Origin: Antedon mediterranea
Lineage: Eukaryota; Animalia; Echinodermata
NCBI RefSeq assembly: GCF_964355755.1
Contig: NC_092671.1
Coordinates: 11,780,001-11,844,000 of the forward strand
DNA length: 64,000 nucleotides
Direction of reading: 5' to 3'
Numbering within the stretch: position 1 is the first letter of the stretch; each line of letters opens with the position of its first letter. The notes beneath the pieces were generated by a model that made no database searches, was not told the origin of the DNA, and saw only the letters and a list, made by a program, of their open reading frames with translations. The position numbers were made by a program, and so were the translations under genes. Below are positions 2,427 through 41,543 of the stretch, one piece after another.

Positions 2427-2430
2427 AAAG

Positions 2431-2431
2431 T

Positions 2432-2462: not shown

Positions 2463-2464
<2 letters not shown>

Positions 2465-4039: not shown

Positions 4040-4603
4040 CTAGACATGTAACTCGTCACTTTGACGAGTTTGGTTATCCGCCGCGCAAGTGGTGCAACAT
4101 TAACATTAAGGGGATAGGTTGAGGACAAAAGGAAGTGTTCACGTTGGCATTATGACCTGAACTGAAGAATATGATATGTTGTTATTGCTGAATTTTATTA
4201 TTTAAATTCATATATAGTATACACAGTATAATCTGTATCCATATCACATACAGTGTAGAATAGGTGAAATTAATTTTGCGCATTTTGAAATTTTAAATGC
4301 GCGTGCGCGCGTAACTTTGTGTAAAACACGCAATTTTTTTTCAACATAAAGTTAGCGCATGATATAAATTAAACTTTTGCGAAGTTTCAAGTTGAAATGT
4401 TATTTGGTTTTCAACATATGTTAAATACGAGAAAAACGTTAAATCGCGCGTACGTCACGTTGCGCAATTGCAAACATCATGAAAAGCTTCGCTTGACGAC
4501 GTTACGTAAATGTCAATATGTTAAGATAGTTACCGAAATGTTATGTTTGCGAGTTTTAGAGAAAAGCGTTACACAAAAATCATACAGAAAGAAAGAAGAA
4601 AAA
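4040..4603 (-). mobile_element. Internally deleted element copy (~960 bp missing)
   Basis: GAATAGGTGAAATTA is joined directly to ATTTTGCGCATTTTG at 4266-4272 through a shared GAAATTA. Confidence 0.85.
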
Positions 4604-10600: not shown

Positions 10601-10937
10601 AATGTTATTTGGTTTTCGACATATGTTAAATACGAGAAAATCGTTAAATCGCGCGTACGTCACGTTGCGCAATTGTAAACATCATGAAAAGCTTCGCTTG
10701 ACGACGTTACATAAATGTCAAAATGTTAACATAGGTAACAAAATGTTATGTTTGCAAGTTTTAGAGAAAAGCGTTACACAAAAATCATACAGAAAGAAAG
10801 AAGAAAAATAAAAAGTTGATGTTGATGATTTCGTACAATCACAAGAGGTTATCCTGCAACTTCGTTGCGGATAACCAATGATGATGATTTCGTACAATCA
10901 CAAGAGGTTATCCTGCAACTTCGTTGCGGATAACCAA

Positions 10938-15400: not shown

Positions 15401-15652
15401 CATCATGAAAAGCTTCGCTTGACGACGTTACATAAATGTCAAAATGTTAACATAGTTAACAAAATGTTATGTTTGCAAGTTTTAGAGAAAAGCGTTACAC
15501 AAAAATCATACAGAAAGAAAGAAGATTAAGAAAAAGATGATGATGATTTCGTACAATCACAAGAGGTTATCCTGCAACTTCGTTGCGGATAACCAATGAT
15601 GATTTCGTACAATCACAAGAGGTTATCCTGCAACTTCGTTGCGGATAACCAA

Positions 15653-17177
15653 CTAGATTTGAACTCGTCACTTTGACGAGTTCGGGTTATCCGCGCAAAG
15701 GCAACATGCACATACTTTAAACTATATGAACTTCGACAAATATTATGCCATCCTATGACATGAATTAAACATGTTTACAGTGCTGAATTGTACCTATTAT
15801 GTAGCATACAGCATGTTATAGAATACACTGTTATATGTTATATACAGTGTAGTATATACGAAATTACGAGACCATCTTTTAAATCCAATTGTTAACACGA
15901 TGATGTCATCAAATTGACATATAAAGATAACTATTTTAGAAGATAATTATCTAAATAATTACATTAATACAAATTTGAAGAATGTTGGGCACGTAAAAGT
16001 GACATGCGCTCTCGTTTAAACGCAATGAACTTTTACGCAAAGGATAAAAATACGACTTTTTTTATTCAACTGGCCATATGATGACGTCACAGGATCTGGT
16101 TGGCAAAATATTTACATGAATTCGTATCTACAATTCAATGACTTCCAGAAAACGTTTAAATCATGAATATCACTTTTTATTCTGACGAGATATAACAGAT
16201 TAAAATTCACTGTAAAGATGAAAATAAGTGACCCACGTTGTTTAGATTTTTAGACATGATGACGTCATAAGAATTAAAATATTTTAACTCCTGCGAAAGA
16301 TAGTTGATTGACGTAGACAATATTAAAATCTCTGGGGAAATGGAATACGTATAAGTGAGATGCGCTCTGTTGAATGTGATGAGCAATAACGAAAGAGACA
16401 AAAATCCTATATTTTATATTTTAGTGGCCATGCGATGACGTCACAATGTCCGCTTAGCCATATCGATGCATGATTTGATATCTAAAACTCATCTACTTCC
16501 AGAATCTGAAATTTTGAAAATGTTAACCACGGAGTTTAGAATCTATGACTTTTTAAAGAAAGGCATAATTTTCACGAATTTTTGAACTTTTTCATCAAAA
16601 ACGTGCGTAAATTGTTCAATTCTACGTGCTCGTATGACGTGATTTTAAGTCGAAATTGATTGAAAATTGGTATATTTACTATAAAAGGCTGAAAAAACAA
16701 AAATCAAGCATAACAAAGATGTTTTTGCGCCACGTGCGTACGCGCGCGTAAAAAAATTGCGCACGCGTGGGAATTTTTGAAATGCTCAAAATGACATGAA
16801 ACGCGTAGAAAGTTGATTAGAAGTTGATTTTTCGCATTTTGAAATTTTAAACGCGCGTGCGCGCGTAACTTTTTGCGCAATCTGCCATTTTTAATCCATA
16901 GAAATTTTGCGCATGATATGACTTAAATTTTCACCAAGTTTCAATACAAAATGACTTTTGGTTTTTAATCTATGATCAATCATTGAAATTCATAAAATCG
17001 CACGTAACTTACGCTGCGCAACTCCGATATCGTCGAAAAGCTTGGCTGCAAATCTACAGCTATAGGTGAATCTTATGACAAAGGTATACAATCTTATGTT
17101 GGCCAGAATTAGAGATACCCTGCGAACAAAATTCGTGGAAAGAAAGAAGAATAAGATAGAAAAAAAAAAAGAAAAAA
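15653..17177 (-). mobile_element. Strongly diverged long element body (CTAGATTTG subfamily), interrupted in its poly-A linker
   Basis: CTAGATTTGAACTCGTCACTTTGACGAGTTCGGGTTATCCGC start; colinear with but clearly diverged from the major unit; its probable cap is at 18390-18440. Confidence 0.8.
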
Positions 17178-18389
17178 CTAGATTTGAACTCGTCACTACG
17201 GACGAGTTAGGTTATCCGCAGCGCAAAAGCCACGTGCACGTCGTACGTTAGAATATTGCGCGCAAAAAAACGATTATGGCATTGAAAAAATGTTAGTGCG
17301 CTCTCTATTTTGCGTCACGTCTAAGTGTATACGGTATAACACTATATACTGTATACGTACTACATACAGTGCGGAATAGGTGAAAATAAGTGACCAAAGT
17401 TATTGACGCATTTGAACATGATGACGTCATCACAATTTTAAAAATGGTGAATCATGGGAAAGATAATTGATTGACCTAGACAATAATAAAAAAATGATGG
17501 AATTGGAAAATGGATAAAGGAGATGCGCTCTATTAAATGTGACGAGCTATGACGAAAGAGAAAAAAATCCTATATTTCATATTCGAGTGGCCAAACGATG
17601 ACGTCACAATGTCCGGTTAGCCATATCGATGCATGATTCGATATCTACAACTCATCAACTTCTAGAATGTGTAATTTAAAAAAAGTTCACCTCGTAGTTT
17701 ACAATCTATGACTGTTTTAAAAAAGACATAATTTGGACGAATTTTTGAACTTTTTCTTCAAAAACGCGCGCAAATTGTTCAATTCTACGTGCTCGTATGA
17801 CGTGATTTTAAGTCGAAATTGATTGAAAATTGGTAAATTTACTAGAAAAGGCTGAAAAAACAAAAATAAAGCAAAAAAAAGAGGTTTTTGCGCTATGTGC
17901 GCACGCGCGCGTAAAAAAAGTGCGCACGCGTGGGAATTTTTGAAACGCTCAAAATGACATGAAACGCGTAGAAAGTTGATTAGAAATTGATTTTTCGCAT
18001 TTTGAAATTTTAAATGCGCGTGCGCACGTAACTTTCTGCGCAACCTGCCATTTTTAATCCATAGAAAGTTTCCGATTAATATGACTTAAATTTTCACCAA
18101 GTTTCAAAACAAAATTACTTTTGGTTTTTAATCTATGATCAATCATTGAAATTCATAAAATCGCGCGTAAGTTACGCTGCGCAACTCGGACTGGACCGAA
18201 AACCTTATTACGACATCTTCAGACAGAGGTCAATCTTCTGATAAAGTTATACAATGTTATGTTAAGAAGATTTTGAGATACACGCGCAACAAAATTCATG
18301 GAAAGAAAGAAGAAAAAAGAAAAAAAAGAAAAAAAAAAAAAAGATCCTGACAATAACAAGAGGTTATCCGCCAAAGTGCGGATAACCAA
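17178..18389 (-). mobile_element. Short (~1.2 kb) subfamily element with type B cap
   Basis: CTAGATTTGAACTCGTCACTACGGACGAGTTAGGTTATCCGC start; lacks one ~355-bp internal repeat; cap GATCCTGACAATAACAAGAGGTTATCCGCCAAAGTGCGGATAACCAA. Confidence 0.82.
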
Positions 18390-18440
18390 AAAAAGATCCT
18401 GACAATAACAAGGGGTTATCCGCCAAGTGCGGATAACCAA

Positions 18441-20039
18441 CTAGACATGTAACTCGTCACTTTGACGAGTTTGGTTATCCGCCGCGCAAATGGTGCAACA
18501 TTAACATTAAGGGGATAGGTTGAAGACAAAAGGAAGTGTTCACGTTGGCATTATGACCTGAACTGAAGAATATGATATGTTGTTATTGCTGAATTTTATT
18601 ATTTATATTCATATATAGTATACACAGTATAATCTGTATCCATATCACATACAGTGACATACATAGAATAGGTGAAATTACGGGACCCGCTATTTATTGC
18701 AATTTTTAACATGTTGACGGTTTTAAAATGAAACGCGAAGGTAGCAATTCCGAAAGGAAATTATCTCAGCAACAACGTATTAGCGTGTAGAAGAAATTTG
18801 AATACGTGAAATATTGATGCGCGCTCTTTTAAATGTAATGAATTATGACGCAAAAGATGAAAATACGACCTTTTTCATTTAACTGGCCATATGATGACGT
18901 CACAACATCCAATTGGCAACATTTTTACATAATTTCGTATCTACAATCCAATAGCTTCCAGAAAAAGTTTTAATCGTGATTATCACATTTTATTCTTACG
19001 AGCTATAACAGATTAAAATTTACTGTAAAGATGAAATTACTGCCACACGTGATTTTAATTTTTAGGCATGATGACGTCAAAAAAATTAAAATATTTTTAA
19101 CTCATGCGAAAGATAGTTGATTGACCTAGACAATGTCAAAATCGGGGTGAAAATTGAAAACGGATAAGTGGATATGCGCTCTATTCAATGTGATGAGCTA
19201 TGACAAAAGATACAAAAATCCTAAATTTTATATTCGCGTGGCCATACGATGACGTCACAATGTCCGGTTAGCCATATTAATACCTGATCCGATATCTACA
19301 ACTCATCTACTTCCAGAATATCCCATCCACAAAAAGTTGACCGTCTAGTTTAGAAATTACGACTGTTTAAAAAAAGGCATTTTTTAAACGAATTTTTTAA
19401 CCTTTTCATAAAAAACGCGCGCAAATTGTCCAATTCGACGTGCTCGTATGACGTATCTTTAAGTCGAAATTGTTTAAAATTTGGTAAAATTACTAGAAAA
19501 GGCTGGAAAAACATAAATCACGCGAAAAAAATACGTTTTCAATGCTACGTGCGCACCGCACACGTAAAAATGTGCGCACGTGTGGGAATTTTTGACATGC
19601 TTAAAACGACATGAAACGCGTAGAAAGTTGATTATAAATTAATTTTGCGCATTTTGAAATTTTAAATGCGCGTGCGCGCGTAACTTTGTGTAAAACACGC
19701 TATTTTTTTTCAACAGAAAGTTAGCGCATAATATAAATTAAACTTTTGCAAAGTTTCACTTTAAAATGTTATTTGGTTTTCGACATATGTTAAATACGAG
19801 AAAATCGTTAAATCGCGCGTACGTCACGTTGCGCGATTGTAAACATCATGAAAAGCTTCGCTTGACGACGTTACATAAATGTCTAAATGTTAACATAGTT
19901 AACAAAATGTTATGTTTGCAAGTTTTAGAGAAAAGCGTTACACAAAAATCATACAGAAAGAAAGAAGATTAAGAAAAAGATGATGATGATTTCGTACAAT
20001 CACAAGAGGTTATCCTGCAACTTCGTTGCGGATAACCAA
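18441..20039 (-). mobile_element. Intact major-subfamily element
   Basis: Both termini present with a single type A cap. Confidence 0.83.
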
Positions 20040-21632
20040 CTAGACATGTAACTCGTCACTTTGACGAGTTAGTTATCCGCACGACAAACGCCACGTGCAC
20101 GTCATACGTTAGAATATTGCACACAGAAAAAATTATGGCATTATGACCTGATCTGAAGAATATGATATGTTGTTAGTGCTGAATTCTGTCAATTTTGTGT
20201 CATATAGTATATACATGCAAACAGTATAATCTGTATACATGTTACATACAGTGTAGAATAGGTGAAATTACGGGACCCGCCATTTATTCAAATTTGTAAC
20301 ATGGCGACGGTATCAAGATGAAACACTAAGATAGCAATTTCGGAAGCAAATTATCTCAGCAACAACATATTAACGTGTAGAAGAAATTTGAATACGTTTA
20401 ATATTGATGCGCGCTCTTTTAAATATAATGAACTATGATGCAAACGATGAAAATACGACTTTTTTTATTTAACTTGCAATATGATGACGTCACAGCATCT
20501 GATTGGCAAAATGTTCACATGATTTCATATCTACAATCCAAGAGCTTCCAGAAAATGTTTTAATCGTGATTATCACATTTTATTTTGACGGGCTATTACA
20601 GATTAAAATTTACTGTAAAGATGAAATTAATGACCCACGTAATTAAAATTTTTAGGCATGATGACGTCATAAAAATTAAAATATTTTTATCTCATGCGAA
20701 AGATAGTTGATTGACCTAGACAATATTAAAATCTCGGAGAAAAAGAAATACGTATAAGCGTGATGCGCTCCATTGAATGTGATGAGCAATAACGAAAGAC
20801 AAAAAAATTCTATATTTTACATTCGTGTGGCCATATGATGACGTCACAACATCCGTGAGGTAAAAATTCTGCATGAATTCATATCTACAACATATCTGCT
20901 TACATATTAAGTTAAAAAAATTAGGGGTAATCGTTGATCCTGAGAAGCTATAAAACATTCAAAATAGGCATAATTTTGACAACATTTTGTAACTTTTTCA
21001 ACTAAAACGCGTGCAAATGGGCTAAATCAACGTGTTCGTATGACGTAATTTTAATTTGAAATGATGTCAATCTTTTTGAAAATGACTAGGAAAGGCTGGA
21101 AAATCACAATTCAAGAGAAAAAAACATGATTTTCAGGCTCTATGCGCACCGTGCGCGTAATATTTTTCGCGCGCGCGGTAATTTTGTACATGCTTAAAAT
21201 GACATGAAACGCGTAGAAAGTTGATTAGAAATTATTTTTGCGCATTTTGAAATTTTAAATGCGCGTGCGCGCGTAACTTTGTGTAAAACACGCAATTTTT
21301 TTCAAACAGAAAGTTAGCGCATGATATAAATTAAACTTTCACAAAGTGTCAATTAAAAATCACTTTTAGTTTTTAATCTATGATCAATCATAAAAAATCA
21401 TAAAATCGCGCGTAAGTCACGTTGCGCAACTCTGACGTAATTTAAAAATAGGAGGTGCACAACTTCACGTAAATGCCCACATGTTGTCAAAGTTATAAAA
21501 TGTTATGTTTACACATTTTAGAGAAACGCTCTACACAAAAATAGCGAGAAAGAAAGAAGAATAATACAGAAAAAAATATTGATCCCATACAATAACAAGG
21601 AGTTATCCGCCAACTTCGTTGCGGATAACTAA
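20040..21632 (-). mobile_element. Intact divergent AGTT-subfamily element with its own cap
   Basis: subTIR TTAGTTATCCGC near 20069 pairs with terminal GCGGATAACTAA at 21621-21632. Confidence 0.82.
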
Positions 21633-24600
21633 TACAGAAAAAAAAAAAAAAAGATGATGAAACAGGACAGTTACAAGGAGTTATCCGCTGAGTGCGGATA
21701 ACTAACTAGACATGTAACTCGTCACTTTGACGAGTTTGGTTATCCGCCGCGCAAGTGGTGCAACATTAACATTAAGGGGATAGGTTGAGGACAAAAGGAA
21801 GTGTTCACGTTGGTGTTATGACCTGAACTGAAGAATATGATATGTTGTTATTGCTGAATTTTATTATTTAAATTCATATATAGTATACACAGTATAATCT
21901 GTATCCATATCACATACAGTGTAGAATAGGTGAAATTACGGGACCCGCTATTTATTGCAATTTTTAACATGTTGACGGTTTTAAAATGAAACGCGAAGGT
22001 AGCAATTCCGAAAGGAAATTATCTCAGCAACAACGTATTAGCGTGTAGAAGAAATTTGAATACGTGAAATATTGATGCGCGCTCTTTTAAATGTAATGAA
22101 TTATGACGCAAAAGATGAAAATACGACCTTTTTTATTTAACTGGCCATATGATGACGTCACAACATCCGATTGGCAAAATTTTTACATAATTTCGTATCT
22201 ACAATCCAATAGCTTCCAGACAAAGTTTTAATCGTGATTATCACATTTTATTCTTACGAGCTATAACAGATTAAAATTTACTGTAAAGATGAAATTAATG
22301 CCACACGTGATTTAAATTTTTAGGCACGATGACGTCAAAAAAATTAAAATATTTTTAACTCATGCGAAAGATACTTGATTGACCTAGACAATATCAAAAT
22401 CGGGGTGAAAATGGAAAACGGATAAGTGGAGATGCGCTCTATTCAATGTGATGAGCTATGACGAAAGATACAAAAATCCTAAATTTTATATTCGCGTGGC
22501 CATACGATGACGTCATAATGTCCGGTTACCCATATTAATACCTGATCCGATATCTACAACTCATCTACTTCCAGAATATGTCATCCACAAAAATTTGACC
22601 GTCTAGTTTAGAAATTACGACTGTTTAAAAAAAGGCATATTTTAAACGAATTTTTTAACCTTTTCATAAAAAACGCGCGCAAATTGTCCAATTCGACGTG
22701 CTCGTATGACGTATCTTTAAGTCGAAATTGTTTAAAATTTGGTAAAATTACTAGAAAAGGCTGAAAAAACATAAATCACGCGAAAAAAATACGTTTTCAA
22801 TGCTACGTGCGCACCTTACACGTAAAAATGTGCGCACGCGTGGGAATTTTTGACATGCTCAAAACGACATGAAACGCGTAGAAAGTTGATTAGAAATTAA
22901 TTTTGCGCATTTTGAAATTTTAAATGCGCATGCGCGCGTAACTTTGTGTAAAACACGCAATTTTTTTTCAACAGACAGTTAGCGCATGATATAAATTAAA
23001 CTTTTGCAAAGTTTCATTTTAAAATGTTGTTTGGTTTTCGACATATGTTAAATACGAGAAAATCGTTAAATCGCGCGTACGTCGCGTTGCGCAATTGTAA
23101 ACATCATGAAAAGCTTCGCTTGACGACGTTACGTGAATGTCAAAATGTTAACATAGTTAACAAAATGTTATGTTTGCAAGTTTTAGAGAAAAGCGTTACA
23201 CAAAAATCATACAGAAAGAAAGAAGATGAAAACTAGACATGTAACTCGTCACTTTGACGAGTTTGGTTATCCGCCGCGCAAGTGGTGCAACATTAACATT
23301 AAGGGGATAGGTTGAGGACAAAAGGAAGTGTTCACGTTGGCATTATGACCTGAACTGAAGAATATGATCTGTTGTTATTGCTGAATTTTATTATTTAAAT
23401 TCATATATAGTATACACAGTATAATCTGTATCCATATCACATACAGTGTAGAATAGGTGAAATTACGGGACCCGCTATTTATTGCAATTTTTAACATGTT
23501 GATGGTTTTAAAATGAAACGCGAAGTTAGCAATTCCGAAAGCAAATTATCTCAGCAACAACGTATTAGCGTGTAGAAGAAATTTGAATACGTTAAATATT
23601 GATGCGCGCTCTTTTAAATGTAATGAACTATGACGAAAAAGATGAAAATACGACCTTTTTTATTTAACTGGCCATATGATGACGTCACAACATCCGATTG
23701 GCAACATTTTTACATAATTCCATATCTACAATCCAATAGCTTCCAGAAAAAGTTTTAATCGTGATTATCACATTTTATTCTTACGAGCTATAACAGATTA
23801 AAATTTACTGTAAACATGAAATTGATGCCACACGTGATTTAAATTTTTAGGCATGATGACGTCAAAAAAAATAAAATATTTTTAACTCATGCGAAAGATA
23901 GTTGATTGACCTAGACAATATCAAAATCGGGGTGAAAATGGAAAACGGATAAGTGGAGATGCGCTCTATTCAATGTGATGAGCTATGACGAAAGATACAA
24001 AAATACTAAATTTTATATTCGCGTGGCCATACGATGACGTCACAATGTCCGGTTAGCCATATTAATACCTGATCCGATATCTACAACTCATCTACTTCCA
24101 GAATATGTCATCCACAAAAATTTGACCGTCTAGTTTAGAAATTACGACTGTTTAAAAAAAGGCATATTTTAAACGAATTTTTTAACCTTTTCATAAAAAA
24201 CGCGCGCAAATTGTCCAATTCGACGTGCTCGTATGACGTATCTTTAAGTCGAAATTGTTTAAAATTTGGTAAAATTACTAGAAAAGGCTGGAAAAACATA
24301 AATCACGCGAAAAAAATACGTTTTCAATGCTACGTGCGCACCGCACACGTAGAAATGTGCGCACGCGTGGGAATTTTTGACATGCTTAAAACGACATGAA
24401 ACGCGTAGAAAGTTGATTATAAATTAATTTTGCGCATTTTGAAATTTTAAATGTGCGTGCGCGCGTAACTTTGTGTAAAACATGCAATTTTTTTTCAACA
24501 GAAATTTAGCGCATGATATAAATTAAACTTTTGCAAAGTTTCACTTTAAAATGTTGTTTGGTTTTCGACATATGTTAAATACGATAAAATCGTTAAATCG

Positions 24601-24760
24601 CGCGTACGTCACGTTGCGCAATTGTAAACATCATGAAAAGCTTCGCTTGACGACGTTACATAAATGTCAAAATGTTAACATAGTTAACAAAATGTTATGT
24701 TTGCGAGTTTTACAGAAAAGCGTTACACAAAAATCATACAGAAAGAAAGAAGAAGAATAA

Positions 24761-26293
24761 CTAGACATGTAACTCGTCACTTTGACGAGTTAGTTATCCG
24801 CACGACAAACGCCATGTGCACGTCATACGTTGGAATATTCCACACAGAAAAAGATTATGGCATTATGACCTGAACTGATGAATATGATATGTTGTTAGTG
24901 CTGAATTCTGTCAATTTTTTGTCTTATAGTATATAGTACAAACAGTATAATCTGTATATATATTATATACAGTGTAGAATAGGTGAAATTACGGGACCCG
25001 CCATTTATTTCAATTTTTAACATGGAGACGGTATCAAAATGAAACAGTAACACTAAGGTTGCAATTTCGGAAGGAAATTATCTCGGCAACAACATATTAA
25101 TGTGTAGAAGAAATTTAAATACGTAAAATATTGGTGCACGCTCTTTTAAATGTAATGAATTATGACGCAAAAGATGAAAATACGACTTTTCTTACTTAAC
25201 TGGACATATGATGACGTCACAACATCCGAATGGCAAAATTTTTACATGATTTTGTATCTACAATCCAATAGCTTCCAGAAAACGTTTTAATCGTGATTAT
25301 CACATTTTATTCTTACGAGCTATAACAGATTAAAATTTTCTGTAAAGATGAAATTAATGCCACATGTAATTTAAATTTTTAGGCATGATGACGTCATAAT
25401 AATTAAAATATTTTTAACTCATGCGAAAGATAGTTGATTGACCTAGACAATATCAAAATCGGGGTGAAAATGAAAAATGGATAAGTGGAGATGCGCTCTA
25501 TTAAATGTGATGAGCTATGACGAAAGATACAAAAATCCTCAATTTTATATTCGCGTGGCCATACGATGACGTTAAAATGTCCGGTTAGCCATATTAATAC
25601 ATGATCCGATATCTATAACTCATCTACTTCAAGAATATGTCATCCACAAAAAATTGACCGTCCAGTTTAGAAATTACGACTGTTTAAAAAAAGGCATAAT
25701 TTTGACAAATTTTTGTACTTTTTCATAAAAAACGTGCGCAAATTGTCCAATTCGACGTGCTCGTATGACGTAACTTTAAGTCGAAAGTGTTTAAAAGTTG
25801 GTAAAATTACTATAAAAGGCTGGAAAAACATAAATCACTCGAAAAAAATATGTTTTTAATGCTACGTGCGCACCGCACACGTAAAAATGTGCGCACGCGT
25901 GGGAATTTTTTACATGCTTAAAATGACATGAAACGCGTAGAAAGTTGATTAGAAATTAATTTTGCGCATTTTGAAATTTTAAATGCGCGTGCACGCGTAA
26001 CTTTTTGTAAAACATGCCATTTTTAGTGCACTAACAGTTTGCCCTTCATATGACTTAAATTTTCATAAAGGGTAAACAAAAAATTACTCTTGGTTTTTAA
26101 GCTATGATCAATCATTAAAAATCATAAAATCGCGCGCAAGTCACGTTGCGCAACTCTGACGTCATTCAAAATAGGAGATGCACAACTTCACGTAAATGCC
26201 CACATGTTGTCAAAGTTATAAAATGTTATGTTTACACATTTTAGAGAAACGTGACTCACAAAAAAATGGGAAAGAAATAAGAAGAATACAGAA
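24761..26293 (-). mobile_element. AGTT-subfamily element body, interrupted in its linker
   Basis: Ends GAATACAGAA|CTAG; the matching AGTT-type cap is at ~30353-30413. Confidence 0.8.
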
Positions 26294-27897
26294 CTAGACA
26301 TGTAACTCGTCACTTTGACGAGTTTGGTTATCCGCCGCGCAAGTGGTGCAACATTAACATTAAGGAGATAGGTTGAGGACAAAAGGAAGTGTTCACGTTG
26401 GCATTATGACCTGAACTGAAGAATATGATATGTTGTTATTGCTGAATTTTATTATTTAAATTCATATATAGTATACACAGTATAATCTGTATCCATATCA
26501 CATACAGCTCAGTGACATACAGTGTAGAATAGGTGAAATTACGGGACCCGCTTTTTATTGCAATTTTTAACATGTTGACGGTTTTAAAATGAAACGCGAA
26601 GGTAGCAATTCCGAAAGGAAATTATCTCAGCAACAACGTATTAGCGTGTAGAAGAAATTTGAATACGTGAAATATTGATGCGCGCTTTTTTAAATGTAAT
26701 GAATTATGACGCAAAAGATGAAAATACGACCTTTTTTATTTAACTGGCCATATGATGACGTCACAACATCCGATGGGCAACATTTTTACATAATTTCGTA
26801 TCTACAATCCAATAGCTTCCAGAAAAAGTTTTAATCGTGATTATCACATTTTATTCTTACGAGCTATAACAGATTAAAATTTACTGTAAAGATGAAATTG
26901 ATGCCACACGTGATTTAAATATTTAGGCATGATGACGTCAAAAAAATTAAAATATTTTTAACTCATGCGAAAGATAGTTGATTGACCTAGACAATATCAA
27001 AATCGGGGTGAAAATGGAAAACGAATAAGTGGAGATGCGCTCTATTCAATGTGATGAGCTATGACGAAAGATACAAAAATCCTAAATTTTATATTCGCGT
27101 GGCCATACGATGACGTCACAATGTCCGGTTAGCCATATTAATACCTGATCCGATACCTACAACTCATCTACTTCCAGAATATGTCATCCACAAAAAGTTG
27201 ACCGTCTAGTTTAGAAATTACAACTGTTTAAAAAAAGGCATATTTTAAACGAATTTTTTAACCTTTTCATAAAAAACGCGCGCAAATTGTCCAATTCGAC
27301 GTGCTCGTATGACGTATCTTTAAGTCGAAATTGTTTAAAATTTGGTAAAATTACTAGAAAAGGCTGGAAAAACATAAATCACGCGAAAAAAATACGTTTT
27401 CAATGCTACGTGCGCACCGCACACGTAAAAATGTGCGCACACGTGGGAATTTTTGACATGCTTAAAACGACATGAAACGCGTAGAAAGTTGATTATAAAT
27501 TAATTTTGCGCATTTTGAAATTTTAAATGCGCGTGCGCGCGTAACTTTGTGTAAAACACGCAATTTTTTTTCAACAGAAAGTTAGCGCATGATATAAATT
27601 GCAAAGTTTCACTTTAAAATGTTATTTGGTTTTCGACATATGTTAAATACGAGAAAATCGTTAAATCGCGCGTACGTCACGTTGCGCAATTGTAAACATC
27701 ATGAAAAGCTTCGCTTGACGACGTTACATAAATGTCAAAATGTTAACATAGTTAACAAAATGTTATGTTTGCAAGTTTTAGAGAAAAGCGTTACACAAAA
27801 ATCATACAGAAAGAAAGAAGATTAAGAAAAAGATGTTGATGATTTCGTACAATCACAAGAGGTTATCCTGCAACTTCGTTGCGGATAACCAAAAAAA

Positions 27898-29050
27898 CTA
27901 GATTTGAACTCGTCACTACGGACGAGTTAGGTTATCCGCATCGCAAAACCCACGCGCATGACACCTAAGTTAGAATATTGCGCGCAGAAAAACGATTATG
28001 CCATTGAAAAAATGTTAGTGAGCCCTCTATTTTGTGTCGCGTCTAAGTGTGTACGGTATACACTATATACTGTATACGTACTACATACAGTGCAGAATAG
28101 GTGAAAATAAGTGACCAAAGTTATTGACGCATTTGAACATGATGACGTCATCACAATTTTAAAAATGGTGAATCATGCGAAAGATAATTGATTGATCTAG
28201 ACAATATAAAAAAATTGAGTGAAATGGAATACAGATAAGTGGAGATGCGCTCTATTAAATTTGACGAGCTATGACAAAAGAGAAAAAAATCCTATATTTT
28301 ATATTCGGGTGGCCATACGATGATGTCACAATGTCCGGTTAGCCATATCAATGCATGATTCGAGAAAAACAACTCATCTACTTCCAGAATATGTAATTTT
28401 AAAAAAGTTCACCACGTAGTTTAGAATTTATGACTGTTTAAAAAAAGGTCTAATTTTGACGATTTTTTGAAGTTTTTCATCAAAAACACGCGCAAATTAT
28501 CCAATTCTACGTGCTCGTGTGACGTGATTTTCAGTCGAAATTGATTGAAAATTCATAAATTTACTAGAAAAGGCTGAAAAAACAAAAATCAAGCAAAAAA
28601 AAGATGTTTTTGCGCTACGTGCGCACGCGCGCGTAAAAAAATTGCGCACGCGTGGGAATTTTTGAAATGCTCAAAATGACATGAAACGCATAGAAAGTTG
28701 ATTAGAAATTGATTTTTCGCATTTTGAAATTTCAAACGCGCATGCGCGCGTAACTTTTTGTGAAACATGCCATTTTTAATCCATAAAAAGTTTGCGCATG
28801 ATCTCACTTAAATTTTCACAAAGTTTCAATACAAAACAACTTTTAGTTTTTATTCTATGATCAATCATTGAAATTCATGAAATCGCGCGTAACTTACACT
28901 GCGCAACTCCAAAATCGTCCAAAAGCTTGGCTGCACATCTACAGCTATAGGTCAACCTTATGACAAAGTTATACAATCTTATGTTGGCCACAAGATAGAG
29001 ATGTGCTGCGAACAAAATTCGGGGAAAGAAAGAAGAATAACATAGAAAAA
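27898..29050 (-). mobile_element. Short-subfamily element body, interrupted in its poly-A linker
   Basis: CTAGATTTG start, ~1.15 kb, ends CATAGAAAAA|CTAG. Confidence 0.8.
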
Positions 29051-30202
29051 CTAGATTTGAACTCGTCACTACGGACGAGTTAGGTTATCCGCAGCGCAAA
29101 AGCCACGTGCACGTCGTACGTTAGAATATTGCGCGCAGATAAACGATGATGCCATTGAAACAATTTCAGTTTTCTCTCTATTTTGCGTCACGTCTAAGTA
29201 TATACGGTATACACTATATTATACTCTATACGTACTACATACAGTGCAGAATAGGTGAAAATAAGTGACCAAAGTTATTGACGCTTTTGGACATGATGAC
29301 GTCATCACAATTTTTAAACTAATGAATCATACGAAAGATAATTGATTGACTTAGACAATATAAAGAAATGGAGGGCAATGGAATACGGATAAGTCGAGAT
29401 GCGCTCTATTAAATGTGATGAGCTCTACGAAAGAGAAAAAAATCCTATATTTTATATTCGAGTGGCCATACGATGACGTCACAATGTCCGGTTAGCCATA
29501 TCGATGCATGATTTGATATTTACAACTCATCTACTTCCAGAATCTGAAATTTAAAAAATTTTCACCTCGGAGTTTAGAATCTATGACTTTTTAAAAAAAG
29601 GCATAATTTTCACGAATTTTTGAACTTTTTCATCAAAAACGCGCGCAAATTGTTCAATTCTACGTGCTCGTATGACGTGATTTTAAGTCCAAATTGTTTG
29701 AAAGTTGGTAAATTTACTAGAAAAGGCTGGAAAAACAAAAATCAAACAAAAAAAAGATGTTTTTGCGCTACGTGCGCACGCGCGCGTAAAAAAATTGCGC
29801 ATGCCTGGGAATTTTTGAAATGCTCAAAATGACATGAAACGCGTAGAAAGTTGATTAGAAGTTGATTTTTTGCATTTTGAAATTTTAAACGCGCGTGCGC
29901 GCGTAACTTCCTGTGAAACATGCCATTTTTAATCCATAGAAAGTTTGCGCTTGATATGACTTAAATGTTCACTAAGTTTCAATATAAAATGACTTTCGGT
30001 TTTTAATCTATGATCAATCATTTAAATTCATAAAACCGCGCGTAACTTACGCTGCGCAACTCAAAATTCATAAAAAAAAGTTTCTTGCACATCTACAGCT
30101 ACAGGGCAATCTTTTGACAAAGTTATACAATCATATGTTTGCCAGAGTTAGAGATACGCTGCGAACAAAATTCGTGGAAAGAAAGAAGAACATAGAAAAA
30201 AA

Positions 30203-30233
<31 letters not shown>

Positions 30234-30277
30234 GATCCTGACAATAACAAGGGGTTATCCGCCAAGTGCGGATAACC

Positions 30278-30279
<2 letters not shown>
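29051..30279 (-). mobile_element. Intact short-subfamily element with type B cap
   Basis: CTAGATTTG start; poly-A linker; cap GATCCTGACAATAACAAGGGGTTATCCGCCAAGTGCGGATAACCAA at 30234-30279. Confidence 0.82.
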
Positions 30280-30308
<29 letters not shown>

Positions 30309-30489
30309 TCCTGACAATAACAAGGGGTTATCCGCCAAGTGCGGATAACCAAAAAAAAAAATATTGATCCACTACAATCACAAGGAGTTATCCGCTACTA
30401 AGCGGATAACTAAAAAGTTGATGATGATGATGATGATGATTTCGTACAATCACAAGAGGTTATCCTGCAACTTCGTTGCGGATAACCAA
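30234..30489 (-). repeat. Stack of four 5' caps from three subfamilies (B, B, AGTT-type, A)
   Basis: Caps end at 30279, 30352, 30413 and 30489, separated by poly-A or (GAT)n linker halves. Confidence 0.9.
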
Positions 30490-33400
30490 CTAGACATGTA
30501 ACTCGTCACTTTGACGAGTTTGGTTATCCGCCGCGCAAGTGGTGCAACATTAACATTAAGGGGATAGGTTGAGGACAAAAGGAAGTGTTCACGTTGGCAT
30601 TATGACCTGAACTGAAGAATATGATATGTTGTTATTGCTGAATTTTATTGTTTAAATTCATATATAGTATACACAGTATAATCTGTATCCATATCACATA
30701 CAGTGTAGAATAGGTGAAATTACGGGACCCGCTATTTATTGCAATTTTTAACATGTTGACGGTTTTAAAATGAAACGCGAAGGTAGCAATTCCGAAAGGA
30801 AATTATCTCAGCAACAACGTCTTAGCGTGTAGAAGAAATTTGAATACGTGAAATATTGATGCGCGCTCTTTTAAATGTAATGAATTATGACGCAAAAGAT
30901 GAAAATACGACCTTTTTCATTTAACTGGCCATATGATGACGTCACAACATCCGATTGGCAACATTTTTACATAATTTCGTATCTACAATCCAATAGCTTC
31001 CAGAAAAAATTTTAATCGTGATTATCACATTTTATTCTTACGAGCTATAACAGATTAAAATTTACTGTAAAGATGAAATTAATGCCACACGTGATTTAAA
31101 TTTTTAGGCATGATGACGTCAAAAAAATTAAAATATTTTTAACTCATGTGAAAGATACTTGATTGACCTAGACAAAATCAAAATCGGGGTGAAAATGGAA
31201 AACGGATAAGTGGAGATGCGCTCTATTCAATGTGATGAGCTATGACGAAAGATACAAAAATCCTAAATTTTATATTCGCGTGGCCATACGATAACATCAC
31301 AATGTCCGGTTAGCCATATTAATACCTGATCCGATATCTACAACTCATCTACTTCCAGAATATGCCATCCACAAAAAGTTGACCGTCTAGTTTAGAAATT
31401 ATGCCTGTTTAAAAAAAGGCATATTTTAAACGAATTTTTTAACCTTTTCATAAAAAACGCGCGCAAATTGTCCAATTCGACGTGCTCGTATGACGTATCT
31501 TTAAGTCGAAATTGTTTAAAATTTGGTAAAATTACTAGAAAAGGCTGGAAAAACATAAATCACGCAAAAAAAGTACGTTTTCAATACTACGTGCGCACCG
31601 CACACGTAAAAATGTGCGCACGCGTGGGAATTTTTGACATGCTTAAAACGACATGAAACGCGTAGAAAGTTGATTATAAATTAATTTTGCGCATTTTTAA
31701 ATTTTAAATGCGCGTGCGCGCGTAACTTTGTGTAAAACACGCAATTTTTTTTCAACAGAAAGTTAGCGCATGATATAAATTAAACTTTTGCAAATTTTCA
31801 AGTGGAAATGTTATTTGGTTGTCGAGCTATGTTAAATACGACAAAATCGTTAAATCGCGCGTAAGTCACGTTGCGCAATTGTAAACGTCATGAAAAGCTT
31901 CGCTTGACGACGTTACGTAAATGTCAATATGTTAAGATAGTTACCGAAATGTTATGTTTGCGAGTTTTAGAGAAAAGCGTTACACAAAAATCATACAGAA
32001 TGATTTCGTACAATCACAAGAGGTTATCCTGCAACTTCGTTGCGGATAACCAACTAGACATGTAACTCGTCACTTTGACGAGTTTGGTTATCCGCCGCGC
32101 AAGTGGTGCAACATTAACATTAAGGGGATAGGTTGAGGACAAAAGGAAGTGTTCACGTTGGCATTATGACCTGAACTGAAGAATATGATATGTTGTTATT
32201 GCTGAATTTTATTATTTAAATTCATATATAGTATACACAGTATAATCTGTATCCATATCACATACAGTGTAGAATAGGTGAAATTACGGGACCCGCTATT
32301 TATTGCAATTTTTAACATGTTGACGGTTTTAAAATGAAACGCGAAGGTAGCAATTCCGAAAGGAAATTATCTCAGCAACAACGTATTAGCGTGTAGGAGA
32401 AATTTGAATACGTGAAATATTGATGCGCGCTCTTTTAAATGTAATGAATTATGACGCAAAAGATGAAAATACGACCTTTTTTATTTAACTGGCCATATGA
32501 TGACGTCACAACATCCGATTGGCAACATTTTTACATAATTTCGTATCTACAATCCAATAGCTTCCAGAAAAAGTTTTAATCGTGATTATCACATTTTATT
32601 TTTACGAGCTATAACAGATTAAAATTTACTGTAAAGATGAAATTGATGCCACACGTGATTTAAATGTTTAGGCATGATGACGTCAAAAAAATTAAAATAT
32701 TTTTAACTCATGCGAAAGATAGTTGATTGACCTAGACAATATCAAAATCGGGGTGAAAATGGAAAACGTATAAGTGGAGATGCGCTCTATTCAATGTGAT
32801 GAGCTATGACGAAAGATACAAAAATCCTAAATTTTATATTCGCGTGGCCATACGATGACGTCACAATGTCCGGTTAGTCATATTAATACCTGATCCGATA
32901 TCTACAACTCATCTACTTCTAGAATATGTCATCCACAAAAATTTGACCGTCTAGTTTAGAAATTACGACTGTTTAAAAAAAGGCATATTTTAAACGAATT
33001 TTTTAACCTTTTCATAAAAAACGCGCGCAAATTGTCCAATTCGACGTGCTCGTATGACGTATCTTTAAGTCGAAATTGTTTAAAATTTGGTAAAATTACT
33101 AGAAAAGGCTGGAAAAACATAAATCACGCGAAAAAAATACGTTTTCAATGCTACGTGCGCACCGCACACGTAAAAATTTGCGCACGCGTGGGAATTTTTG
33201 ACATGCTTAAAACGACATGAAACGCGTAGAAAGTTGATTAGAAATTAATTTTGCGCATTTTGAAATTTTAAATGCGCGTGTGCGCGTAACTTTGTGTAAA
33301 ACATGGAATTTTTTTTCAACAGAAAGTTAGCGCATGATATAAATTAAACTTTTGCAAAGTTTTAAATTGAAATGTTATTTGGTTGTCGAGCTATGTTAAA

Positions 33401-36400
33401 TACGACAAAATCGTTAAATCACGCGTAAGTCACGTTGCGCAATTGTAAACGTCATTAGAAGCTTCGCTTGACGACGTTACGTAAATGTCAATATGTTAAG
33501 ATAGTTACCGAAATGTTATGTTTGCGAGTTTTAGAGAAAAGCGTTACACAAAAATCATACAGAATGATTTCGTACAATCACAAGAGGTTATCCTGCAACT
33601 TCGTTGCGGATAACCAACTAGATTTAACTAGACATGTAACTCGTCACTTTGACGAGTTTGGTTATCCGCCGCGCAAGTGGTGCAACATTAACATTAAGGG
33701 GATAGGTTGAGGACAAAAGGAAGTTTTCACGTCGGCATTATGACCTGAACTGAAGAATATGATATATTATTATTGCTGAATTTTATTATTTAAATTCATA
33801 TATAGTATACACAGTATAATCTGTATCCATATCACATACAGTGACATACATAGAATTGGTGAAATTACGGGACCCGCTATTTATTGCAATTTTTAACATG
33901 TTGACGGTTTTAAAATGAAACGCAAAGGTAGCAATTCCGAAAGGAAATTATCTCAGCAACAACGTATTAGCGTGTAGAAGAAATTTGAATACGTGAAATA
34001 TTGATGCGCGCTCGTTTAAATGTAATGAATTATGACGCAAGAAATGAAAATACGACCTTTTTTATTTAACTGGCCATATGATGACGTCACAACATCCGAT
34101 TGGCAACATTTTTACATAATTTCGTATCTACAGTCCAATAGCTTCCAGAAAAAGTTTTAATCGTGATTATCACATTTTATTCTTACGTGCTATAACAGAT
34201 TAAAATTTACTGTAAAGATGAAATTGATGCCACACGTGATTTAAATTTTTAGGCATGATGACGTCAAAAAAATTAAAATATTTTTAACTCATGCGAAAGA
34301 TAGTTAATTGACCTAAACAATATCAAAATCGGGGTGAAAATGGAAAACGAATAAGTGGAGATGCGCTCTATTCAATGTGTAGAGCTATGACGAAAGATAC
34401 AAAAATCCTAAATTTTATATTCGCGTGGCCATACGATGACGTCACAATGTCCGGTTAGCCATATTAATACCTGATCCGATATCTACAACTCATCTACTTC
34501 CAGAATATGCCATCCACAAAAAGTTGACCGTCTAGTTTAGAAATTACGACTGTTTAAAAAAAGGCATATTTTAAACGAATTTTTTAACCTTTTCATAAAA
34601 AACGCGCGCAAATTGTCCAATTCGACGTGCTCGTATGACGTATCTTTAAGTCGAAATTGTTAAAAATTTGGTAAAATTACATGAAAAGGCTGGAAAAACA
34701 TAAATCGCGCGAAAAAAACACGTTTTCAATGCTACGTGCGCACCGCACACGTAAAAATGTGCGCACGCGTGGGAATTTTTGACATGCTTAAAACGACATG
34801 AAACGCATAGAAAGTTGATTATAAATTAGTTTCGCGCATTTTGAAATTTTAAATGCGCGTGCGCGCGTAACTTTGTTTAAAACACGCAATTTTTTTTCAA
34901 CAGAAAGTTAGCGCATGATATAAATTAAACTTTTGCAAAGTTTCACTTTAAAATGTTATTTGGTTTTCGACATATGTTAAATACGAGAAAATCGTTAAAT
35001 TGCGCGATTGTAAACATCATGAAAAGCTTCGCTTGACGACGTTACATAAATGTCAAAATGTTAACATAGTTAACAAAATGTTATGTTTGCAAGTTTTAGA
35101 GAAAAGCGTTACACAAAAATCATACAGAAAGAAAGAAGATTAAGAAAAAGACTAGACATGTAACTCGTCACTTTGACGAGTTTGGTTATCCGCCGCGCAA
35201 GTGGTGCAACATTAACATTAAGGGGATAGGTTGAGGACAAAGGGAAGTGTTCACGTTGGCATTATGACCTGAACTGAAGAGTATGATATGTTGTTATTGC
35301 TGAACTTTATTATTTAAATTCATATATAGTATACACAGTATAATCTGTATCCATATCACATACAGTGTAGAATAGGTGAAATTACGGGACCCGCTATTTA
35401 TTGCAATTTTTAACATGTTGACGGTTTTAAAATGAAACGCGAAGGTAGCAATTGCGAAAGAAAATTATCTCAGCAACAACGTATTAACGTGTAGAAGAAA
35501 TTTGAATACGTGAAATATTGATGCGCGCTCTTTTAAATGTAATGAATTATGACGCAAAAGATGAAAATACGACCTTTTTTATTTAACTGGCCATATGATG
35601 ACGTCACAACATCCGATTGGCAACATTTTTACATAATTTCGTATCTACAATCCAATAGCTTCCAGAAAAAGTTTTAATCGTGATTATCACATTTTATTCT
35701 TACGAGCTATAACAGATTAAAATTTACTGTAAAGATGAAATTGATGCCACACGTGATTTAAATTTTTAGGCATGACGACGTCAAAAAAATAAAAATATTT
35801 TTAACTCATGCGAAAGATAGTTGATTGACCTAGACAATATCAAAATCAGGGTGAAAATGGAAAACGGATAAGTGGAGATGCGCTCTATTCAATGTGATGA
35901 GCTATGACGAAAGATACAAAAATCCTAAATTTTATATTCGCGTGGCCATACGATGACGTCACAATGTCCGGTTAGCCATATTAATACCTGATCCGACATC
36001 TACAACTCATCTACTTCCAGAATATGTCATCCACAAAAAGTTGACCGTCTAGTTTAGAAATTACGACTGTTTAAAAAAAGGCATATTTTAAACGAATTGT
36101 TTAACCTTTTCATAAAAAACGCGCGCAAATTGTCCAATTCGACGTGCTCGTATGACGTATCTTTAAGTCGAAATTGTTTAAAATTTGGTAAAATTACTAG
36201 AAAAGGCTGGAAAAACATAAATTACGCGAAAAAAATACGTTTTCAATGCTACGTGCGCACCGCACACGTAAAAATGTGCGCACGCGTGGGAATTTTTGAC
36301 ATGCTTAAAACGACATGAAACGCGTAGAAAGTTGATTATAAATTAATTTTGCGCAATTTGAAATTTTAAATGCGCGTGCGCGCGTAACTTTGTGTAAAAC

Positions 36401-39400
36401 ACGCAATTTTTTTTCAACAGAAAGTTAGCGCATGATATAAATTAAACTTTAGCAAAGTTTCACTTTAAAATGTTATTTGGTTTTCGACATATGTTAAATA
36501 CGAGAAAATCGTTAAATCGCGCGTACGTCACGTTGCGCAATTGTAAACGTCATGAAAAGCTTCGCATGACGACGTTACGTAAATGTCAAAATGTTAACAT
36601 AGTTAACGAAATGTTATGTTTACGAGTTTCAGAGAAAAGCGTTACACAAAAATCATACAGAAAGAAAGAAGAACTAGACATGTAACTCGTCACTTTGACG
36701 AGTTTGGTTATCCGCCGCGCAAGTGGTGCAACATTAACATTAAGGGGATAGGTTGAGGACAAAAGGAAGTGTTCACGTTGGCATTATGATCTGAACTGAA
36801 GAATATGATATGTTGTTATTGCTGAATTTTATTATTTAAATTCATATATAGTATACACAGTATATTCTGTATCCATATCACATACAGTGACATACAGTGT
36901 AGAATAGGTGAAATTACGGGACCTGCTATTTATTGCAATTTTTAACATGTTGACGGTTTTAAAATAAAACGCGAAGGTAGCAATTCCGAAAGGAAATTAT
37001 CTCAGCAACAACGTATTAGCGTGTAGAAGAAATTTGAATACGTGAAATATTGATGCGCGCTCTTTTAAATGTAATGAATTATGACGCAAAAGATGAAAAT
37101 ACGACCTTTTTCATTTAACTGGCCATATGATGACGTCACAACATCCGATTGGCAACATTTTTACATAATTTCGTATCTACAATCCAATAGCTTCCAGAAA
37201 AAGTTTAATCGTGATTATCACATTTTATTCTTACGAGCTATAACAGATTAAAATTTACTGTAAAGATGAAATTGATGCCACACGTGATTTAAATTTTTAG
37301 GCATGATGACGTCAAAAAAATTAAAATATTTTTAACTCATGCGAAAGATAGTTGATTGACCTAGACAATATCAAAATCAGGGTGAAAATAGAAAACGAAT
37401 AGGTGGAGATGCGCTCTATTCAATGTGATGAGTTATGACGAAAGATACAAAAATCCTAAATTTTATATTCGCGTGGCCATACGATGACGTCACAATGTCC
37501 GGTTAGCCATATTAATACCTGATCCGATATCTACAACTCATCTACTTCCAGAATATGTCATCCACAAAAAGTTGACCGTCTAGTTTAGAAATTACGACTG
37601 TTTAAAAAAAGGCATATTTTAAACGAATTTTTTAACCTTTTCATAAAAAACGCGCGCAAATTGCCCAATTCGACGTGCTCGTATGACGTATCTTTAAGTC
37701 GAAATTGTTTAAAATTTGGTAAAATTGCTAGAAAAGGCTGGAAAAACATAAATCACGCGAAAAAAATACGTTTTCAATGCTACGTGCGCACCGCACACGT
37801 AAAAATGTGCGCACGCGTGGGAATTTTTGACATGCTTAAAACGACATAAAACGCGTAGAAAGTTGATTATAAATTAATTTTGCGCATTTTGAAATTTTAA
37901 ATATGCGTGCGCGCGTAACTTTGTGTAAAACACGCAATTTTTTTTCAACAGAAAGTTAGCGCATGATATAAATTAAACTTTTGCAAAGTTTCACTTTAAA
38001 ATGTTATTTGGTTTTCGACATATGTTAGATACGAGAAAATCGTTAAATCGCGCGTACGTCACGTTGCGCAATTGTAAACATCATGAAAAGCTTCGCTTGA
38101 CGACGTTACATAAATGTCAAAATGTTAACATAGTTACCGAAATGTTATGTTTGCGAATTTTAGAGAAAAGCGTTACACAAAAATCATACAGAAAGAAAGA
38201 AGAAGAACTAGACATGTAACTCGTCACTTTGACGAGTTTGGTTATCCGCCGCGCAAGTGGTGCAACATTAACATTAAGGGGATAGGTTGAGGACAAAAGG
38301 AAGTGTTCACGTTGGCATTATGACCTGAACTGAAGAATATGATATGTTGTTATTGCGGAAATTTATTGTTTAAATTCATATATACTGTAGTATACACAGT
38401 ATAATCTGTATCCATATCACATACAGTGTAGAATAGGTGAAATTACGGGACCCGCTATTTATTGCAATTTTTAACATGTTGACGGTTTTAAAATGAAACG
38501 CGAAGGTAGCAATTCCGAAAGGAAATTATCTCAGCAACAACGTATTAGCGTGTAGAAGAAATTTGAATACGTGAAATATTGATGCGCGCTCTTTTAAATG
38601 TAATGAATTATGACGCAAAAGATGAAAATACGACCTTTTTCATTTAACTGGCCATATGATGACGTCACAACATCCAATTGGCAACATTTTTACATAATTT
38701 CGTATCTACAATCCAATAGCTTCCAGAAAAAGTTTTAATCGTGATTATCACATTTTATTCTTACGAGCTATAACAGATTAAAATTTACTGTAAAGATGAA
38801 ATTACTGCCACACGTGATTTTAATTTTTAGGCATGATGACGTCAAAAAAATTAAAATATTTTTAACTCATGCGAAAGATAGTTGATTGACCTAGACAATG
38901 TCAAAATCGGGGTGAAAATTGAAAACGGATAAGTGGATATGCGCTCTATTCAATGTGATGAGCTATGACAAAAGATACAAAAATCCTAAATTTTATATTC
39001 GCGTGGCCATACGATGACGTCACAATGTCCGGTTAGCCATATTAATACCTGATCCGATATCTACAACTCATCTACTTCCAGAATATCCCATCCACAAAAA
39101 GTTGACCGTCTAGTTTAGAAATTACGACTGTTTAAAAAAAGGCATATTTTAAACGAATTTTTTAACCTTTTCATAAAAAACGCGCACAAATTGTCCAATT
39201 CGACGTACTCGTATGACGTATCTTTAAGTCGAAATTGTTTAAAATTTGGTAAAATTACTAGAAAAGGCTGGAAAAACATAAATCGCGAAAAAAATACGTT
39301 TTCAATGCTACGTGCGTACCGCACACGTAAAAATGTGCGCACGCGTGGGAATTTTTGACATACTTAAAACGACCAGAAACGCGTAGAAAGTTGATTATAA

Positions 39401-41286: not shown

Positions 41287-41543
41287 GATTTCGTACAATC
41301 ACAAGAGGTTATCCTGCAACTTCGTTGCGGATAACCAAAAATAAAAAGATGATGATTTCGTACAATCACAAGAGGTTATCCTGCAACTTCGTTGCGGATA
41401 ACCAATGATGATGATTTCGTACAATCACAAGAGGTTATCCTGCAACTTCGTTGCGGATAACCAATAAAAAGTTGATGATGATGATGATGATGATTTCGTA
41501 CAATCACAAGAGGTTATCCTGCAACTTCGTTGCGGATAACCAA
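41287..41543 (-). repeat. Stack of four type A 5' caps
   Basis: Caps end at 41338, 41405, 41464 and 41543, following four consecutive cap-less bodies (33628-39732) plus the adjacent body. Confidence 0.9.

What the first reader, a model, noticed from the sequence alone, without database searches (positions are those of the whole stretch)
23233..30489. Four-level last-in-first-out nest across three subfamilies
Bodies open in the order major (23233, ends GAAGAATAA|), AGTT-type (24761, ends ATACAGAA|), short (27898, ends CATAGAAAAA|), short (29051). One complete major element (26294-27892) sits in between, followed by five leftover A's. The caps close in exactly reverse order: B (ends 30279), B (30352), AGTT-type preceded by A(n)TATTGATCC (30413), type A preceded by AAAGTTGATG (30489). 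Rejoining gives GAAGAATAAAAAGTTGATG, identical to the intact linker near 41250, and ATACAGA(n)TATTGATCC, like the intact linker near 21564-21585. Slippage cannot produce caps of different families in mirror order. It also implies that the divergent subfamilies inserted after a major-family copy, so they were co-active.
Basis: seen in the sequence. Interest (0 to 1): 0.9.

Follow-up and report, generated by a model that had tools for sequence, protein, structure and literature searches.

The report
Self-nesting rolling-circle transposon array
This stretch is a real Russian-doll stack of small non-coding transposon copies, part of a 62-kb array in which every copy faces the same way and interrupts an earlier copy only near one end, most likely because these rolling-circle (Helitron2-type) elements keep jumping into their own relatives; self-insertion is known for such elements, but this depth and regularity is unusual.

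Summary
The four-level nest is real. Bodies open at 23232, 24760, 27897 and 29050; caps close in mirror order at 30278, 30351, 30412 and 30488. Read on the minus strand, each unit has Helitron2/HLE2 anatomy: 5' T, asymmetric terminal inverted repeats (ATIRs), hairpins at both ends, 3' CTAGT, no target duplication, no ORF. The "caps" are the 5' ends. Bases 1-62233 are one such array: 40 bodies and 39 caps, all in one orientation. A stack parse type-matches 37 of 37 pairs (17 split; p about 7e-5). All 19 split points lie 51-82 nt from a host's 5' end, and 0 of 5 linker-deleted copies carry an insert. The nest lies inside a fifth copy (21705) and probably inside a founder of another family (cap at 62234-62288). 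Outside the focal nest the order is imperfect: 8 of 13 split major pairs rejoin cleanly and 3-5 bodies lack caps. Major and AGTT types nest in each other, which shows overlapping activity; for the short type this is inferred. Self-insertion with stacked 5' ends is published for Fusarium Helitrons, and this scan noted similar nests in two other genomes. No transposase was found.

The parts
23232..24759 (-). Level 1 host, major type: 3' end (CTAGT, hairpin, 3' ATIR) and body, broken in its linker
   Evidence: sister copy 52538 differs at 1 of 1506 sites
24760..26292 (-). Level 2, AGTT type: 3' end and body, broken in its linker; mosaic with a major-like middle
26293..27891 (-). Complete major element (1599 bp) inserted in the AGTT host
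27892..27896 (-). Five leftover bases of the AGTT host's A-run between its two guests
27897..29049 (-). Level 3, short type: 3' end and body, broken in its A-run
   Evidence: 89.3% to 29050
29050..30278 (-). Level 4, complete short element (1229 bp) with cap B
30279..30351 (-). 5' end (A-run + cap B hairpin) of element 27897
30352..30412 (-). 5' end (T-type cap, TAG- ATIR) of AGTT element 24760
30413..30488 (-). 5' end (linker rest, GAT repeat, cap A) of major element 23232
   Evidence: 0 edits to an intact linker
21705..23231 (-). Outer host (major) whose open linker holds the focal nest; intact sister 60647 differs at 5 of 1506 sites; its cap is either the one ending at 60570 or lost
1..62233 (-). 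Whole array: 40 bodies, 39 caps and one 10-nt stub, all in one orientation; it begins before the window
62234..62288 (-). 5' end of a different family (other ATIR hairpin, same subterminal ACAAT-ACAA motif); probable founder host that closes the array
   Evidence: (hairpin z -6.0)

Best explanation
The stretch is a last-in-first-out nest of 1.2-1.6-kb non-coding elements with Helitron2/HLE2 ends, likely built by successive rolling-circle insertions of whole copies, always in one orientation, into the T-rich linker 51-82 nt inside the 5' end of an earlier copy. Shown: the anatomy, the order, the narrow window of break points, the single orientation and the absence of target duplication. Inferred: (1) a RepHel transposase encoded elsewhere moves the copies; (2) the pyrimidine/T-rich linker is a preferred target because these elements insert after a T, and each new copy brings a fresh linker, so the array feeds itself; (3) insertion without duplication leaves the T site intact next to the resident's end, and the end is probably also cut by the transposase, so later copies land flush on an existing junction; (4) 3'-end read-through and unequal recombination among the direct repeats later removed or shuffled some caps.
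For: 37 of 37 stack pairs type-matched, 17 of them split, p 7e-5. 19 of 19 distinct split points lie within the last 90 nt (51-82 nt) of 1.2-1.6-kb hosts; the one internally deleted host is 0.6 kb. The strict start motif occurs 35 times on plus and 0 on minus, the cap motif 40 and 0. All 5 cap hairpins folded have z -4.9 to -6.9; the 3 3' hairpins folded are weaker, z -1.9 to -3.2. A T precedes the 5' end in 39 of 39 and T or C follows the 3' CTAGT in 40 of 40, matching Helitron2 in PMC3627910 and PMC5148889. 0 of 5 linker-deleted major copies hold inserts against 16 of 26 others, Fisher p 0.018. 17 of 40 bodies start flush on a cap end and 3 more within 10 nt. None of the 15 comparable flush neighbours or 20 host-guest pairs reaches 98% identity, while 99.1-99.9% sisters are never adjacent. 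Contigs of run X2 join 26291 to 30351, the empty-linker form of the AGTT host (2 contigs, 23 letters on the short side).
Against: No transposase: only 2 ORFs of 100 aa or more in the window and no genome on hand, so the rolling-circle step rests on end structure. Outside the focal nest the strict stack is imperfect: 8 of 13 split major pairs rejoin within 2 edits (null mean 4.1, p 0.02). The strict stack leaves 3 bodies open; a best non-crossing match leaves 5 bodies and 4 caps unpaired, two of those caps belonging to bodies before the window. All 4 B-cap guests lie in non-major hosts, which took 8 of 40 insertions (p 8e-4, a post hoc test), as expected if parts of the nest were built elsewhere. 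The T-before/T-after rule depends on where one shared base is assigned, and 18 of the 39 T's come from a neighbour's end. Joints 29045>30351, 29047>30363 and 29050>30373 could be short-type linkers joined to T-type caps; I read them as 20039-like copies mapped at 90% likeness, but did not prove it. All four runs are one sample.
Confidence: 0.82

Rival explanations
1. The nest was mostly not built step by step at this locus: composite transposition (5' start at an outer cap, or read-through of inner 3' ends) and unequal recombination moved ready-made sub-nests between arrays, so nesting order here says little about co-activity.
For: 3-5 capless bodies and linker rejoins with an 11-nt gain or loss; mosaic bodies 24760 and 10937; B-cap guests only in non-major hosts; the same model is proposed for Fusarium multiple 5' termini.
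Against: It still needs oriented self-insertion to make the sub-nests. Near-identical hosts carry different cargo (23232/52538, 36673/49404, 21705/60647), so no duplicated sub-nest is seen in the window. Moving 24760 with its cargo in one step would need read-through of three inner 3' ends. The three split focal pairs are all in the best non-crossing match.
Confidence: 0.12
2. Caps are multiplied by slippage or by rolling-circle concatemers, and bodies are ordinary tandem duplicates that lost their ends.
For: The two B caps at 30232-30351 are identical and flanked by long A-runs; Tandem Repeats Finder calls several cap pairs as 2-copy arrays.
Against: Adjacent caps are of three types in mirror order; the linker piece before a cap complements the piece left on its body; neighbours are 73-98% alike, never identical; in nest 15652>17177 the two B caps differ and each follows its own body tail type.
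Confidence: 0.03
3. The order is an assembly artefact of collapsed or shuffled repeats.
For: Highly repetitive region; no contig spans it.
Against: Copies differ by 0.07-28% and carry private junctions; a mis-assembly would not give 17 of 17 type-matched split pairs with complementary linkers.
Confidence: 0.02

Closest known systems
Helitron2 / HLE2 non-autonomous elements (Bao and Jurka 2013, PMC3627910; HELIANO, PMC11417382; passages read)
   Same: 5' T; 5' ATIR 0-2 bp from the end folding into a hairpin; 3' ATIR directly upstream of a 3' hairpin; insertion after T-rich sequence before T or C; no target duplication.
   Different: 3' end is CTAGT, close to the canonical CTRR; the 3' ATIR ends about 30-33 nt from the end (20-30 in the paper); only 11 of 21 linker sites follow TTTT, the rest TCAT, TTAT or GTAT; here every copy seen sits inside or flush against a relative.
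FoHeli of Fusarium oxysporum with multiple 5' termini (Chellapan et al. 2016, PMC5148889; sections 10 and 16 and passages read)
   Same: Self-insertion near the 5' end giving stacked short 5' termini (31-85 nt there, 51-82 nt here); FoHeli1/2 insert between TNAT and T.
   Different: There: one nested example and a few multi-5' copies, with one 3' end. Here: a 62-kb pure array with balanced, type-matched nests five or more levels deep and several end families.
HINE / DINE-1 (non-autonomous Helentrons; PMC4067079, PMC7492417; passages read)
   Same: SubTIRs, 5' inverted repeat, microsatellite after the 5' end, central repeats (about 177-bp units, 63-68% alike), 3' palindrome, T-rich targets, clustering of related copies.
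   Different: The endonuclease-bearing Helentron partner was not found; the passages read describe dispersed or neighbouring copies, not deep oriented nests.
Earlier notes of this scan, e1-7626375 and e1-7695787 (other genomes, unchecked AI notes)
   Same: One-directional Russian-doll piles of small Helitron2/Helentron-type elements inserting near one end of relatives.
   Different: Different DNA: a sequence look-up with this element found nothing.

Membership tests
Helitron2 / HLE2 | 5' end starts with T; ATIR within 0-2 bp of it, pairing into a 5' hairpin | tested here: met
   5 of 5 caps folded, z -4.9 to -6.9; definition
Helitron2 / HLE2 | 3' ATIR (8-15 bp) about 20-30 bp from the 3' end, directly upstream of a hairpin | tested here: met
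   10-12 bp ATIR, about 30-33 nt from the end, co-varying with the cap in all 11 copies listed; at the upper edge of the published range
Helitron2 / HLE2 | Insertion between T and T/C, no target-site duplication | tested here: met
   T before in 39 of 39, T or C after in 40 of 40; clean rejoins without duplication in the focal pairs; depends on the assignment of one shared base
Helitron2 / HLE2 | Partner RepHel protein in the HLE2 clade | not testable with these tools
   No such ORF in the window, no genome held, pattern scans gave only 3 short chance-like hits
Helentron (HINE/DINE-1) | Autonomous partner carries an endonuclease domain | not testable with these tools
   No partner available
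Helentron (HINE/DINE-1) | Microsatellite near the 5' end and central tandem repeats | tested here: met
   GAT/ATC runs next to cap A; about 177-bp degenerate internal repeats in the major and AGTT copies tested, not detected by self-BLAST in the short copy
Helitron1 / HLE1 | 5' TC, no terminal inverted repeats, single 3' hairpin | tested here: not met
   5' ends read TG or TA, with ATIRs and a 5' hairpin; only the CTAG near the 3' end resembles HLE1

The most novel reading that the evidence does not exclude
A guild of HLE2 elements uses the 5' subterminal zone of any resident relative as a dedicated, self-renewing landing pad. Targeting would be set by a feature shared across families with different ATIRs (the ACAAT-ACAA motif, the 5' hairpin and the pyrimidine tract, as in the foreign founder cap), plus re-cutting of resident ends. 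Such arrays would be safe-harbour 'transposon stacks' that grow by transposition into satellite-sized blocks and record the order of activity of all families.
Probability: 0.3. Interest if true: 0.75.

Novelty: new variant of a known kind. Interest (0 to 1): 0.52.

Why it matters
It shows a route to long heterochromatin-like arrays by targeted transposition instead of unequal crossover, with the order of events readable from the sequence. The 32-bp target window, the lack of inserts in linker-deleted copies and the flush re-use of junctions make the target choice of Helitron2/Helentron transposases directly testable. It also warns annotators: such arrays look like tandem repeats with 'multiple termini'.

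Tried and rejected
No whole genome is held, so genome-wide cap/body trees were not possible; trees and identities use the 40 window copies only. Pattern scans of metagenome contigs (2 loci) and genome contigs (1 locus) gave only 20-23-nt matches in prokaryote-like DNA: rejected as chance. Viral contigs was not scanned. The other haplotype or empty site at the founder cap (62190-63400) was not obtained, so it stays open. Contig depths are not copy numbers and were not used as such; only the top rows of its tables were shown (254 joints hidden). The idea that 21705 closes at 60570 fits its sister's linker exactly, but the best non-crossing match prefers 35151-60646 plus 49404-60570: left undecided. 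Which side of a junction new copies enter could not be told from the data. Identities for 4039 (internal deletion) are distorted by alignment and were not used. Canonical Helitron1 rejected on the 5' end. Literature: 8 searches found self-insertion only for Fusarium Helitrons and no description of a deep oriented nest; subscription papers are not covered, and supplements were not read (those of PMC5148889 list the multi-terminus copies and may bear on novelty).

Full report
Observation. Bodies begin with ACTAG plus a hairpin at 23232, 24760, 27897 and 29050. A complete element lies at 26293-27891, followed by five A's. Four caps end at 30278, 30351, 30412 and 30488 in the order B, B, T, A. Removing the inner copies restores the linker of 23232 to 0 edits from the intact linker of 39732, ignoring GAT-run length. 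The linker of 24760 rejoins into the form of intact 20039 with a longer A-run. The two short bodies differ at 120 of 1122 sites, so they are separate copies, each owed a cap.

The whole window. Bases 1-62233 hold 40 body starts, one 10-nt stub (33617) and 39 caps. The strict start motif occurs 35 times on plus and never on minus; the cap motif 40 times and never on minus. Only two ORFs of 100 aa or more exist. A plain stack parse gives 37 pairs, all type-matched: 20 intact (15 major-A, 3 AGTT-T, 2 short-B) and 17 split (13 major-A, 2 AGTT-T, 1 short-B, 1 CGGG-B). Random order of the 17 delayed caps would match with p 7e-5. Finer checks agree. The ATIR reads TAG- at both ends of all 5 AGTT copies and TGG- in the caps of the other 6 copies listed. 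The tail of 24760 is 92% like 20039, against 63-85% for the other nine compared. In nest 15652>17177 the divergent tail gets the divergent B cap. The focal nest sits in the open linker of 21705, so it is at least five levels deep. The array ends at 62234-62288 in a cap of another family, with a different hairpin but the same subterminal motif, followed by unrelated DNA; I read it as the founder host, whose body would lie before the window (inference).

What the element is. On the minus strand each unit reads 5' T, an ATIR folded into a hairpin (5 of 5 caps folded, z -4.9 to -6.9), a conserved motif, a microsatellite or T-run, a pyrimidine tract, a body, the 3' ATIR, a hairpin (3 folded, z -1.9 to -3.2) and CTAGT. 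The major and AGTT bodies tested carry about 177-bp degenerate repeats. This matches the Helitron2 definition in PMC3627910 (passages) and the HINE layout in PMC4067079 and PMC7492417 (passages). A T precedes the 5' end in 39 of 39 cases and T or C follows the 3' end in 40 of 40, the published Helitron2 rule. One base can be assigned to either side, so the firm statement is that the target holds an obligatory T and is not duplicated. Family membership by transposase could not be tested.

Where copies land. All 19 distinct split points lie 51-82 nt from the host's 5' end, none elsewhere in the hosts. Five major copies lack the purine linker and none holds an insert, against 16 of 26 others (Fisher p 0.018; these five could also simply be late arrivals). 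Seventeen of 40 bodies start exactly on a cap end and three more within 10 nt. Neighbours are not copies of each other: the 15 comparable flush pairs and 20 host-guest pairs are all under 98% alike, whereas six sister groups at 99.1-99.9% are never adjacent and carry different cargo. This argues against rolling-circle concatemers and local duplication, and for independent insertions.

Mechanism. Shown: order, orientation, window, no duplication. Inferred: a RepHel enzyme from elsewhere inserts whole copies strand-specifically after a T in the T-rich linker; each copy brings a new linker; the site beside a resident's end is regenerated and perhaps re-cut, giving flush stacks. The foreign founder cap, hit 55 nt from its end, suggests that the guest's own ATIR sequence is not the address.

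Results against a clean picture. Only 8 of 13 split major pairs of the strict stack rejoin within 2 edits of an intact linker (null mean 4.1, p 0.02). Three bodies stay open in the strict stack. A best non-crossing match leaves 5 bodies and 4 caps unpaired (2 caps belong before the window), but keeps all three split focal pairs. Linkers with an 11-nt gain or loss, mosaic bodies and capless bodies point to 3' read-through or recombination after insertion. All 4 B-cap guests lie in non-major hosts (p 8e-4, post hoc).

Co-activity. Major > AGTT > major nesting (23232 > 24760 > 26293; also 10937 holding majors) shows overlap of these two types. Host 23232 differs from 52538 at 1 of 1506 sites yet has another break and cargo, so the AGTT copy probably arrived very recently (gene conversion could mimic this). 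For the short type the evidence is one-way.

Reads. Four coded runs, all one sample, hold the flank. Laid on 24700-30520, 6,920-39,015 contigs per run cover 30 of 30 bins, so the family is abundant and varied. X2 has a joint 26291>30351, the empty-linker form of the AGTT host (2 contigs, 23 letters on the short side). Joints from the short linker to the T cap also appear; I attribute them to 20039-like copies at 90% likeness, because another joint carries the 20039 tail letters, but short-body/T-cap chimeras are not excluded. No contig spans the nest, and the runs are not independent of the assembly. The state of the other haplotype is open.

What is known. PMC5148889 (sections 10 and 16 and passages) describes Fusarium Helitron2-like elements with repeated 5' termini of 31-85 nt and explains them by self-insertion. 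PMC4067079 notes related copies next to one another. Eight searches found no account of a deep, oriented, balanced nest; PMC11417382, PMC13085455 and 10.1101/2025.11.13.688278 were seen as passages only, and no supplements were read. This scan noted similar nests in two other genomes; these notes are unchecked and not evidence.

Verdict. Interest 0.52.

Noticed in passing
window 62234-62288: Cap of another family (different ATIR hairpin, same subterminal motif) closes the array; it was hit 55 nt from its end, inside the same window as the other hosts.
   Followed up: partly
window 33617-33626: A 10-nt stub of a short-type 3' end between a cap and the next major body: a doubled 3' terminus or a deletion scar.
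   Followed up: no
window 6139-6150: Copy that keeps its last 8 nt but has lost about 115 nt including the 3' hairpin and ATIR; otherwise 99.1% like 23232.
   Followed up: no
window 4039-4602: Internally deleted major copy (about 560 bp) that still hosts inserts.
   Followed up: no
window 7556, 30489, 32053, 41543, 47832 (and the copy ending at 830): Sub-lineage lacking the purine linker; none carries an insert.
   Followed up: yes
window 15652-18439: Full-length CGGG-type copy with a B cap; the short type looks like its internally deleted relative (80-82% overall, up to 93% locally).
   Followed up: partly
window 10937-12457 and 24760-26292: AGTT copies are mosaics: ends of their own type, middles 92-95% like the major type.
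   Followed up: partly
window 62308-62352: A second GC-richer hairpin-like stretch just outside the founder cap, seen by eye only.
   Followed up: no
window 62929-63030 and 63185-63301: Two imperfect direct copies (about 87% in matched pieces) in the flank.
   Followed up: no
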